Of a stretch of 64,000 nucleotides of DNA, positions 2,184 to 5,100 are shown in pieces. The stretch's first letter is position 1. Each line of letters opens with the position of its first letter. The position numbers were made by a program. Source of the DNA: Escherichia coli (GTDB taxonomy: Bacteria > Pseudomonadota > Gammaproteobacteria > Enterobacterales > Enterobacteriaceae); NCBI RefSeq assembly GCF_003334305.1, contig NZ_QOWS01000004.1. One strand, written 5' to 3'.

Positions 2184-5100
2184 TCAGTAAAAGCGAATGG
2201 AGGGAGATTACACGAGATAAAGAACGCGAGCGACAGTAAATTAGGTGCGAAAAAAAACCTGCGCATCCGCGCAGGTTGGTGCAAGAGACAGGGTACGAAG
2301 AGCGTACCGAATAATCTCACCAATCAATACCTCTGGGATCTTGATTGTGGTCTGCACGACGACTCTTCGCCAGCGAGAAAACGCAAAGGAATGAAGGGAA
2401 ATGCAACGAGGTGTGTAAATTGTCGGTTACTGTTACAGATTGATGACCGGCAAAAAAAAACCTGCGCATCTGCGCAGGCTGGTGTAATTCATGTGCTCAA
2501 CCCGAAGTTGACTTCACCTATCAATACCTCTGGGATCACCACTTTAGCAACCTGAAGCCAAACGCCACCAGCGGTCAATCGCAACAGCGTTTCGCAAAGT
2601 GTAACCAAAGGTTTGCAATCTCTTTTTTTGTCTTACTTATTTGCGTTTGGCTCACATTCCCACGATGAAAACACGCCACCCCTTGAACCAACGGGCGTTT
2701 TCCGTAACACTGAAAGAATGTAAGCGTTTACCCACTAAGGTATTTTCATGGCGACCATAAAGGATGTAGCCCGACTGGCAGGCGTTTCAGTCGCCACCGT
2801 TTCCCGCGTCATTAATAATTCACCTAAAGCCAGCGAAGCTTCCCGGCTGGCTGTGCATAGTGCAATGGAGTCTCTTAGCTATCACCCGAACGCCAACGCC
2901 CGTGCGCTGGCGCAGCAGACCACTGAAACGGTCGGTCTGATCGTTGGTGATGTTTCCGATCCGTTTTTCGGTGCAATGGTGAAAGCGGTCGAACAGGTGG
3001 CTTATCACACCGGTAATTTCTTATTGATTGGCAACGGTTACCACAACGAACAAAAAGAGCGTCAGGCTATTGAGCAACTGATCCGCCATCGCTGTGCTGC
3101 GTTGGTCGTCCATGCCAAAATGATCCCGGATGCCGATTTAGCCTCATTAATGAAACAAATGCCCGGTATGGTGCTGATCAACCGTATCCTGCCTGGCTTT
3201 GAAAACCGTTGTATTGCTCTTGACGATCGTTACGGTGCCTGGCTGGCAACGCGTCATTTAATTCAGCAAGGTCATACCCGCATTGGTTATCTGTGCTCTA
3301 ACCACTCTATTTCTGACGCCGAAGATCGTCTGCAAGGGTATTACGATGCCCTTGCTGAAAGTGGTATTGCGGCCAATGACCGGCTGGTGACATTTGGCGA
3401 ACCAGACGAAAGCGGCGGCGAACAGGCAATGACCGAGCTTTTGGGACGAGGAAGAAATTTCACTGCGGTAGCCTGTTATAACGATTCAATGGCGGCGGGT
3501 GCGATGGGCGTTCTCAATGATAATGGTATTGATGTACCGGGTGAGATTTCGTTAATTGGCTTTGATGATGTGCTGGTGTCACGCTATGTGCGCCCGCGCC
3601 TGACCACCGTGCGTTACCCAATCGTGACGATGGCGACCCAGGCTGCCGAACTGGCTTTGGCGCTGGCGGATAATCGCCCTCTCCCGGAAATTACTAATGT
3701 CTTTAGTCCGACGCTGGTACGTCGCCATTCAGTGTCAACTCCGTCGCTGGAGGCAAGTCATCATGCAACCAGCGACTAACCGCAGTTAAAGCAATTCCAG
3801 CGCCAGTAATTCTTCGATGGTCTGGCGACGGCGAATCAACCGCGCCTGACCATTATCAAACAGAACTTCTGGTAACAGCGGACGGCTGTTGTAGTTGGAT
3901 GACATTGATGCGCCATATGCCCCTGTATCATGCAGTACCAGATAATCACCCGCCTTCACTTCCGGCAAGGCGCGGGTTTCAACATTTCCCCCTTCCTGCT
4001 GGGTAAAGACATCGCCCGATTCACATAATGGCCCGGCGACGACGGTTTCCACCGTTGGCGCGTGTTCCAGAGAACGACCATCAGCTGCCAGGGCACTGAT
4101 ATGGTGGTAACTACCGTACATTGCCGGGCGCATCAGATCGTTGAACCCAGCATCAACCAGCACAAAGTGGCGGCTACCCATTTGTTTGACGCTCCGCACC
4201 TGAGTAATTAATACGCCAGACTGCGCTACCAGGAAGCGACCCGGTTCAATTTCCAGTTTCACAGGGTGGCCCAAATGGCGGGCGATTTGCTCACGCGCGG
4301 CATTCCACAGACCATAATAATGTTCGGTATCAACCGCCTCTTCACCCTGTTGATAAGGAACAGAAAGCCCACCGCCCGCAGAAATAGCCTGTAAATCCTG
4401 ACCGAATTCGATGACCTGACGCACCATAGCACCACACACCTGTTCCAGATGGGCATAATCAACGCCAGAACCAATGTGCATGTGAATGCCGACCAGCTGC
4501 AGATGATGACGTTGTATCACGTCCAGTGCGGCGGGCAGATCGGTGTACCAGATACCGTGCTTGCTGTTTTCGCCACCGGTATTGGTTTTTTGGCTATGTC
4601 CGTGACCAAACCCCGGATTAACGCGCAGCCATACCCGATGCCCTGGCGAAACCTGGCCCAGTTGGTCGAGCATATCAACAGAACCCGCATTCACCGGAAT
4701 TTGCAATTCACTGACGCGTTCAAGCGTCGCCTGATCGATAACATCTGCCGTAAAAACAATATCATCGGGGTGCGTTTGCGGATTGTAACCCGCCGCCAAC
4801 GCACGCTCTATTTCGCCTAACGAGACGGAATCCACTTTCACGCCCTGCTCACGCATTAAGCGCAAAATATGAATATTGGAACAGGCTTTCTGTGCAAAGC
4901 GCACCACATCAAACTGTTTCAGCGCTGCAATCTGCCGACGAATAATTTGCGCATCGTAGACCCACACCGGGCAGCCAAATTCAGCGGGCAAACGCAGCAG
5001 ATTTTCGGCGGTGAGATCGGTATCGGTGCTGAACAGTGAATGTGGCATAACAAACTCCAGATAAGTGCTTTTTTATGATTACGCCACATCATAAAAAGAA

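What the first reader, a model, noticed from the sequence alone, without database searches (positions are those of the whole stretch)
2250..2534. Tandem paralogous sRNAs OmrA and OmrB in the aas–galR spacer
Two roughly 85-nt RNAs on the minus strand share nearly identical 5' ends (CCCAGAGGUAUUGAU) and terminator hairpins but differ in the middle. They are absent from the ORF track and explain most of the 586-bp spacer. The duplicated upstream regions should carry OmpR boxes.
Basis: partly seen in the sequence, partly recalled or inferred. Interest (0 to 1): 0.3.

Follow-up and report, generated by a model that had tools for sequence, protein, structure and literature searches.

The report
Known E. 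coli sRNAs OmrA and OmrB

Summary
Confirmed and already known. Rfam RF00079 (OmrA-B) matches full length at window 2250-2337(-) with 96.6 bits and at 2453-2534(-) with 86.1 bits; the gathering score is 40. The aas-proximal 88-nt copy is base-for-base K-12 omrA (b4444). The galR-proximal 82-nt copy is K-12 omrB (b4445); the only difference is one extra T just after the annotated 3' end. The copies share an identical 15-nt 5' end and an 18-nt 3' end and differ in the middle. The locus is in 5424 of 5426 complete E. coli genomes. It lies next to aas and/or galR in the 48 Enterobacterales loci I fetched. Terminator pairs covary, and the central hairpin survives complete sequence turnover. The 5' seed pairs with the ompR leader, as published. 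The OmpR-box prediction is only partly borne out by computation. PomrB has a strong consensus site at -81..-62. PomrA has only weak half-sites, although published experiments show direct OmpR-P activation of both promoters. Minor corrections: the spacer is 585 bp, not 586, and the RNAs alone cover 29% of it. Nothing here is new.

The parts
2250..2337 (-). omrA: 88-nt Hfq-dependent small RNA, the aas-proximal copy. TSS at 2337, 3' end of the U-tail at 2250.
   Evidence: Rfam RF00079, 96.6 bits, model 1-87/87. 88/88 identical to K-12 omrA b4444. MFE -29.5 kcal/mol, z -2.68.
2453..2534 (-). omrB: 82-nt Hfq-dependent small RNA, the galR-proximal copy. TSS at 2534. One further T at 2452 lengthens the T-tract to 9, against 8 in K-12.
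   Evidence: Rfam RF00079, 86.1 bits, model 1-87/87. The 82 nt are identical to K-12 omrB b4445. MFE -26.6 kcal/mol, z -2.91.
2323..2337 (-). OmrA 5' seed CCCAGAGGUAUUGAU, the target-pairing region.
   Evidence: Identical in both copies. The first 9 nt pair with ACCUUUGGG at -18..-10 of K-12 ompR. The role of the 5' end was shown by compensatory mutations (PMC2588501).
2520..2534 (-). OmrB 5' seed CCCAGAGGUAUUGAU.
2250..2277 (-). OmrA intrinsic terminator: stem AACCUGCGC / GCGCAGGUU, loop GGAU, then a U-tail.
   Evidence: Terminator scan. In 64 homologues, 3 pairs show changes on both sides and 99.9% of cells are paired.
2453..2480 (-). OmrB intrinsic terminator: stem AGCCUGCGC / GCGCAGGUU, loop AGAU, then a U-tail.
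2292..2308 (-). OmrA central hairpin GGUACG-CUCUU-CGUACC, in the variable, paralogue-specific module.
   Evidence: A hairpin is kept at this position in homologues with unrelated sequence.
2344..2350 (-). omrA -10 region CCACAAT (-13..-7) with C at -13 and -12, not the canonical -12T. It is reported as the sigma-S determinant.
   Evidence: Read from the sequence. ACAAT is invariant, bar one A for C, and -12 is never T (C or G) in 17 genera. The effect of -12C is reported in the review PMC12692685.
2377..2437 (-). omrA upstream activator region with three conserved boxes: TGTAACAG (-100..-93, 2437..2430), ACACACCTCGTTGCATTT (-79..-62, 2416..2399) and TCATTCCTTTGCGTTTTC (-57..-40, 2394..2377). 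Weak OmpR-like half-sites lie at -99, -70 and -50.
   Evidence: Phylogenetic footprint of 17 promoters with coordinates. The need for sequence upstream of -60 for OmpR activation is published (PMC5175337).
2541..2550 (-). omrB extended -10 region TTGCTAAAGT (-16..-7) with -12T.
2594..2615 (-). omrB box B2, an OmpR site: CAAACCTTTGGTTACACTTTGC (-81..-60). It includes T-75 (2609) and A-68 (2602).
   Evidence: 20-mer PWM score 9.84, rank 30 of 127,962. Half-site GTTACACTTT is in the top 0.007%. It is the most conserved block across 23 promoters; only TTT, TTACA and TTTGC are invariant. T-75C plus A-68G reduced OmpR activation from 81-fold to 3.3-fold (PMC13425233).
2576..2588 (-). omrB box B1: GCTGTTGCGATTG (-54..-42). 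It is a conserved element with no known binding partner.
   Evidence: Footprint and coordinates. Its role in multicopy RstA activation is reported in PMC13425233.

Best explanation
The region holds two tandem, independently transcribed genes for the paralogous Hfq-dependent small RNAs OmrA (2250-2337, minus strand) and OmrB (2453-2534, minus strand). Each has its own activator-dependent promoter and its own intrinsic terminator. The single-stranded conserved 5' end (CCCAGAGGUAUUGAU...) base-pairs with short complementary stretches near the translation start of many mRNAs. These include outer-membrane protein and receptor genes such as ompT, cirA, fecA and fepA, as well as csgD, flhDC, dgcM and ompR-envZ itself. 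With Hfq bound at the terminator and U-tail, pairing blocks translation and leads to RNase E-dependent decay. EnvZ-OmpR activates both promoters, and the RNAs repress ompR, which closes a negative feedback loop. The promoters have diverged. omrA has a non-T base at -12 and depends on sigma-S. omrB has an extended -10 with -12T and responds at least to multicopy RstA. The pair therefore delivers one seed under two different inputs. What is shown here: identity, anatomy, conservation, structure covariation, seed complementarity to ompR, and the promoter footprints. What is taken from the literature: Hfq and RNase E dependence, the target list, and the OmpR, sigma-S and RstA control.
For: Two full-length RF00079 hits at 96.6 and 86.1 bits against a gathering score of 40. 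The sequences are identical to the curated K-12 omrA and omrB genes in the same aas-omrA-omrB-galR order. The locus is present in 5424 of 5426 complete E. coli genomes, at 99% identity or more in 5401. I found 64 distinct homologues in 48 Enterobacterales loci and none in the non-enterobacterial chance hits of the 15-mer. The terminator has 3 pairs changed on both sides, 28 such cells against 5.6 in shuffles, and 99.9% of cells paired against 18-56% when the partner is slid. The central hairpin persists through complete sequence replacement, with median z -1.8. The 5' seed forms 9 consecutive pairs with ompR -18..-10; the whole duplexes reach -22.1 and -19.6 kcal/mol, which only 1.2% and 2.2% of shuffles equal. 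Promoter footprints and -10 differences match published descriptions. The window bases at -75 and -68 of PomrB are T and A, as in the published mutants. Published experiments cover OmpR-P activation in vitro (PMC5175337), 5'-end pairing with Hfq and RNase E dependence (PMC2588501) and the role of sigma-S (PMC12692685).
Against: Nothing contradicts the identification. There are limits. Expression, Hfq binding and regulation cannot be tested from sequence for this particular strain. The OmpR site in PomrA is not detectable above chance with a matrix built from seven ompF/ompC sites. The invariance of the 5' 15-mer in my homologue set is partly an artefact, because the loci were collected with that exact 15-mer.
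Confidence: 0.98

Rival explanations
1. The repeats encode small proteins rather than RNAs. Four ORFs of 49-78 aa overlap them: 2087-2323(-), 2245-2394(+), 2317-2469(-) and 2391-2555(+).
For: The ORFs exist in the mechanical ORF list.
Against: None of the four reading frames is kept across genera. Stop codons interrupt three of them, and alignable similarity in all four is confined to the translated images of the sRNA 5' end and terminator; everything between diverges. Stops appear already in E. albertii for two of them. The conservation pattern is that of a seed plus covarying helices.
Confidence: 0.01
2. The elements are cis-acting leaders or attenuators of the downstream, co-oriented aas-lplT operon rather than trans-acting RNAs. 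Alternatively they play that role in addition to acting in trans.
For: An omr gene ends 64-189 nt upstream of aas, in the same orientation, in 31 of 33 Enterobacterales loci. The simple scan found no sigma-70-like promoter anywhere in 2100-2800. Sub-threshold Leu_leader hits overlap both copies.
Against: Both RNAs end in strong canonical terminators. The Leu_leader hits score 23-28 bits against a gathering score of 50 and only reflect the terminator. Trans action through the 5' seed has been shown by compensatory mutations (PMC2588501). The tight linkage can be explained by vertical inheritance of a short spacer. A library search for OmrA together with aas and lplT found 2 papers, both on laboratory evolution and metabolic engineering; judged by title and abstract only, neither concerns read-through.
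Confidence: 0.03
3. The two copies are a generic dispersed repeat (REP, a MITE or similar) or a chance duplication without function.
For: They are direct repeats about 200 bp apart with palindromic 3' ends.
Against: The 15-mer occurs only at these two sites in 64 kb. E. coli genomes carry a median of one place per genome. Homologues are confined to the aas/galR neighbourhood across Enterobacterales. They match a curated sRNA family at E-values of 1e-15 to 1e-18.
Confidence: 0.005

Closest known systems
E. coli K-12 omrA (b4444, formerly rygA) and omrB (b4445, formerly rygB); Rfam RF00079 OmrA-B
   Same: omrA is 88/88 identical and omrB 82/82 identical. The gene order aas-omrA-omrB-galR, the strand, the promoters and the terminators are the same.
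   Different: There is one extra T immediately after the annotated omrB 3' end, giving 9 T against 8 in K-12. This makes the spacer 585 bp against 584 bp in K-12. No other difference was found in the spacer.
Single-copy 'chimeric' omr loci of some Enterobacteriaceae (omrB promoter driving an OmrA-type transcript), described in PMC13425233
   Same: They share the seed, the terminator and the aas/galR context. I recovered such loci in Enterobacter sp. BIGb0383, Superficieibacter, Lelliottia and Enterobacter sp. MGH 24.
   Different: The window has the full two-gene arrangement with both promoter types.
Other OmpR-activated or envelope-stress sRNAs that repress outer-membrane protein mRNAs with Hfq (MicF, MicC, RybB). 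This comparison rests on general knowledge.
   Same: They have the same logic: a short 5' or internal seed, an Hfq-binding terminator, and repression at the translation start with RNase E decay. RybB likewise uses its conserved 5' end.
   Different: The sequences and Rfam families are unrelated. OmrA and OmrB are a tandem paralogue pair and feed back on their own activator, ompR.

Membership tests
Rfam RF00079 OmrA-B | Covariance-model score at or above the curated gathering score (40 bits), full length | tested here: met
   96.6 bits at 2250-2337(-) and 86.1 bits at 2453-2534(-). Both cover model positions 1-87 of 87.
Rfam RF00079 OmrA-B | Conserved single-stranded 5' seed CCCAGAGGUAUUGAU | tested here: met
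   Both copies carry it exactly. It is unpaired in the Rfam consensus structure and in the OmrA MFE fold; in the OmrB MFE fold it is partly paired.
Rfam RF00079 OmrA-B | GGUG...CACC outer helix, a variable central hairpin, then a G+C-rich terminator hairpin with a U-tail | tested here: met
   The outer helix is invariant in 64 sequences, which is uninformative. The terminator has 3 covarying pairs and 99.9% of cells paired. The central hairpin is retained with unrelated sequences.
E. coli omrA/omrB genes | Sequence identity to the experimentally characterised K-12 genes | tested here: met
   88/88 and 82/82 identical.
E. coli omrA/omrB genes | [quoted passage not shown] | tested here: met
   aas is at 3-2162(-) and galR at 2748-3779(+). 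K-12 has the same order. Context is conserved in Enterobacterales.
E. coli omrA/omrB genes | OmpR-dependent promoters with OmpR binding sites upstream of -40 | tested here: inconclusive
   PomrB has a strong site at -81..-62 that coincides with the published mutations. PomrA has only weak half-sites, no better than chance. Direct activation of both is published but cannot be tested here.
E. coli omrA/omrB genes | omrA -10 with a non-T base at -12 (sigma-S dependence) against omrB with -12T | tested here: met
   omrA has CCACAAT at -13..-7. omrB has TGCTAAAGT at -15..-7. This matches the description in PMC12692685.
Hfq-dependent trans-acting sRNAs | Binding to Hfq and Hfq-dependent, RNase E-dependent repression of targets | not testable with these tools
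   Published for the identical K-12 RNAs (PMC2588501). Only the sequence prerequisites, a terminator with a U-tail, are seen here.
Hfq-dependent trans-acting sRNAs | Seed complementarity to validated targets | tested here: met
   The seed forms 9 consecutive pairs with ompR -18..-10. The duplexes are better than about 98% of shuffled seeds. Only ompR was tested, using the K-12 sequence.

The most novel reading that the evidence does not exclude
The near-universal placement of an omr gene 64-189 nt upstream of aas and in the same orientation (31 of 33 loci) could reflect functional coupling. No recognisable sigma-70 promoter was found in this spacer by the simple consensus scan. Partial read-through of the OmrA terminator would then put aas-lplT, which repairs lysophospholipids in the envelope, under OmpR and sigma-S control. 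The locus would be a combined sRNA and mRNA envelope-stress unit.
Probability: 0.05. Interest if true: 0.35.

Novelty: already known. Interest (0 to 1): 0.08.

Why it matters
It matters little as a discovery. OmrA and OmrB have been studied since 2001-2006, and their targets, OmpR feedback loop and promoter divergence are published. There is some practical value. RefSeq/PGAP annotation of ordinary E. coli genomes, such as strains 600468 and 300709, leaves these genes unannotated. A scan that flags them is therefore working correctly, and the spacer should not be treated as empty. The comparative data gathered here reproduce the recently published picture: promoter-specific conserved boxes, and single-copy 'omrB promoter + OmrA transcript' chimeras. 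They add small details, namely a chimera with a different junction and a natural IS3 insertion in PomrA.

Tried and rejected
1) The sigma-70 consensus scan of 2100-2800 found no promoter. This is expected for activator-dependent promoters with poor -35 elements. I located the -10 elements by distance from the 5' ends and by conservation instead.

2) A 20-mer OmpR matrix built from seven ompF/ompC sites found the PomrB site but not a convincing PomrA site. I first checked that all seven sites are present verbatim in the K-12 ompF/ompC upstream regions. A 10-mer half-site matrix gave weak, phased PomrA hits at -99, -70 and -50 that are not significant on their own.

3) A permissive Rfam scan of 1800-3100 gave only sub-threshold Leu_leader and TeloSII hits that overlap the terminators and the promoter. 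I rejected them as chance.

4) The small-ORF reading was rejected because the reading frames are not conserved.

More than half were chance 15-mer hits in unrelated phyla with no Omr homology. The taxon sample is therefore partial, and it is biased towards copies with an exact seed.

6) The MAFFT alignment of the 64 RNAs misaligns the hypervariable centre. I tested that hairpin sequence by sequence instead.

7) The 10-nt perfect inverted repeat at 2556-2565 / 2643-2652 is probably chance. Its distal arm is not conserved.

8) A library search for aas read-through from omrA found nothing relevant.

Full report
**Observation.** Read on the minus strand, the aas-galR spacer (2163-2747, 585 bp) holds two related units. 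Rfam's OmrA-B model (RF00079) matches both over its full length. The first match is 2250-2337(-) at 96.6 bits (E 6e-18). The second is 2453-2534(-) at 86.1 bits (E 2e-15). The gathering score is 40.

- The 15-mer CCCAGAGGTATTGAT occurs only at these two 5' ends in the 64-kb window. Chance expectation is 0.09 matches even with two mismatches allowed.
- The copies share a 15-nt identical 5' prefix and an 18-nt identical 3' suffix.
- The repeat finder returns the 5' block (96% identical) and the terminator block (89%), spaced 197 and 203 nt apart.
- Both copies end in a 9-bp G+C-rich hairpin followed by a T-run.
- Each copy folds better than nearly all of 200 shuffles (none for OmrA, 2 for OmrB; z -2.7 and -2.9).
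- The middles are unrelated in sequence.

Two small corrections apply. The spacer is 585 bp, not 586. The RNAs alone cover 29% of it, which rises to about 68% when their roughly 114-bp promoters are included.

**Identity.** The window is E. coli. A 701-bp query across the spacer finds 5424 of 5426 complete E. coli genomes, 5401 of them at 99% identity or more. In the curated K-12 MG1655 record the order is aas, omrA (88 nt), omrB (82 nt), galR.

- The window's aas-proximal copy is 88/88 identical to omrA.
- The galR-proximal copy is 82/82 identical to omrB. One additional T lies just beyond the annotated 3' end, giving 9 T against 8 in K-12.
- PGAP-annotated genomes such as strain 600468 list nothing between aas and galR. 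That strain is 99.4-99.6% identical to the window over almost its whole length (window 1-63548). This is why the genes look 'absent from the ORF track'.

- nhmmer with the two window RNAs found homologues in 48 loci. All are Enterobacterales: Escherichia, Citrobacter, Enterobacter, Kluyvera, Kosakonia, Pluralibacter, Serratia, Pantoea, Erwinia, Dickeya, Pectobacterium, Edwardsiella, Rahnella, Tatumella and others.
- No homologue was found in any of the chance 15-mer hits from other phyla.
- aas and/or galR lie beside the homologues in most of these loci; a few short loci hold neither gene.
- One caveat applies. Because the loci were collected with the exact seed, the invariance of the first 15 nt in this set is partly built in.

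**Structure.** On the 64 distinct RNAs the terminator helix is paired in 99.9% of cells. Three of its pairs change on both sides (U-A to C-G, G-C to A-U, C-G to U-A). That gives 28 such cells against 5.6 in shuffles, and pairing drops to 18-56% when the 3' partner is slid. The GGUG/CACC helix never varies, so it says nothing either way. The centre is hypervariable and MAFFT misaligns it. Folded one sequence at a time, almost every homologue forms a hairpin there from unrelated sequence. Examples are GGUACG/CGUACC, UCAAC/GUUGA, CAGCAUAC/GUAUGUUG and GGCAGC/GCUGCU; the median z is -1.8. This is the signature of a structured RNA with a free 5' seed. It is not the signature of a protein. No overlapping ORF stays open across genera, and two of them are already interrupted in E. 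albertii.

**Mechanism.** The first nine nucleotides, CCCAGAGGU, form nine consecutive pairs with ACCUUUGGG at -18..-10 of the K-12 ompR leader. The full duplexes reach -22.1 kcal/mol (OmrA) and -19.6 kcal/mol (OmrB). Only 1.2% and 2.2% of shuffled seeds do as well. This agrees with published compensatory-mutation work, which shows three things (PMC2588501):

- the conserved 5' end pairs with ompT, cirA and ompR mRNAs near the translation start;
- regulation needs Hfq and RNase E;
- the RNAs therefore repress their own activator.

These last points are taken from the literature. They cannot be tested here.

**Promoters and the OmpR-box prediction.** I took the RNA 5' ends as transcription starts.

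- omrA has the -10 region CCACAAT (-13..-7), with C rather than T at -12.
- omrB has an extended -10, TGCTAAAGT, with -12T.
- The literature attributes the sigma-S dependence of omrA to that non-T base at -12 (PMC12692685).

Footprints from 17 omrA-type and 23 omrB-type promoters show different conserved boxes (coordinates).

| Promoter | Conserved box | Position relative to TSS |
|---|---|---|
| PomrA | TGTAACAG | -100..-93 |
| PomrA | ACACnCTnGTTGCAyTT | -79..-62 |
| PomrA | TCATTCCnTTGCGTTTTC | -57..-40 |
| PomrB | AACCTTTGGTTACACTTTGC | -79..-60 |
| PomrB | GCTGTTGCGATTG | -54..-42 |

This reproduces the A and B boxes described in PMC13425233.

I built an OmpR matrix from the seven classical ompF/ompC sites, after checking that all seven occur verbatim in the K-12 promoters.

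- PomrB scores 9.84 at -81..-62, rank 30 of 127,962 window positions.
- Its half-site GTTACACTTT is in the top 0.007% of positions.
- The site contains T-75 and A-68, the bases whose mutation reduced OmpR activation from 81-fold to 3.3-fold.
- PomrA has only weak half-sites at -99, -70 and -50, no better than chance.
- Even so, OmpR-P activates both promoters in vitro from -114 templates, and a -60 omrA promoter does not respond (PMC5175337).

The two upstream regions keep a faint common origin. In-register identity is 47/115 at a 1-nt offset, against a background of about 27%. Otherwise they are as different as unrelated sequence, at 53% in a gapped global alignment. The prediction is therefore right in substance, clearly visible for omrB, and not demonstrable by sequence for omrA.

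**Evolution of the pair.** Several genera have a single gene with an OmrA-type transcript behind an omrB-type promoter: Enterobacter sp. BIGb0383, Superficieibacter, Lelliottia and Enterobacter sp. MGH 24. This is as reported in PMC13425233. I infer that it arose by deletion through recombination between the identical 5' ends of the direct repeats.

**Verdict.** Interest is low.

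Noticed in passing
window 12000-32000, with tRNA at 32087-32157(-): This is a low-GC island (32-40% against about 51% around it). It carries a degenerate ETT2-type type III secretion cluster: yqeH/I/J/K, ygeG/H/I and PrgH/EscJ/R/S/T/U-like genes. Several are pseudogenes in the 99.4%-identical strain 600468. The island ends at a tRNA-Gly gene. The window lacks the IS3 that splits the YscQ-like gene in strain 600468; the junction is near 29613-29618.
   Followed up: partly
window 2400-2403 (equivalent position in E. coli strain 300709, L128:1692-3000): A natural 1309-bp IS3-family insertion with a 4-bp target duplication sits at -63..-66 of the omrA promoter. It separates the upstream region needed for OmpR activation from the core promoter, so this strain may have OmpR-blind omrA.
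   Followed up: partly
window 2452-2460: The T-tract after the omrB terminator stem has 9 T here and 8 T in K-12. It is the only difference from K-12 found in the spacer.
   Followed up: yes
L102:422-640 (Pseudescherichia vulneris): This is a single-copy omr locus. Its upstream boxes are omrB-type (B2, B1), but its -10 region (CCACAAT) and transcript are omrA-type. The deletion junction therefore lies between -40 and -13, not inside the shared 5' end as in the other chimeras.
   Followed up: partly
L033:2747-4878, L062:647-2769, L105:4546-6729 (Pantoea, Erwinia): The two omr copies are about 2 kb apart instead of about 200 bp. In Pantoea stewartii the gap holds a 579-aa FtsI-like class B penicillin-binding protein gene. 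It scores 687 bits on NF011685, below the 737-bit cut-off, so it is probably a paralogue of ftsI.
   Followed up: partly
window 2163-2249 and 33 related loci: An omr gene ends 64-189 nt upstream of aas and in the same orientation in 31 of 33 Enterobacterales loci. The simple scan finds no sigma-70-like promoter in the spacer. Whether aas depends on read-through of the OmrA terminator is untested.
   Followed up: partly
window 2556-2565 and 2643-2652: A perfect 10-nt inverted repeat (AGCCAAACGC / GCGTTTGGCT) brackets the omrB upstream region. The distal arm is not conserved in other genera, so it is probably chance.
   Followed up: partly
L002, L126, L128 (RefSeq annotation of E. coli strains 600468 and 300709): PGAP annotation lists no feature for omrA or omrB, although the sequences are present and essentially identical to K-12. 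The genes are annotated only in the curated K-12 record.
   Followed up: yes
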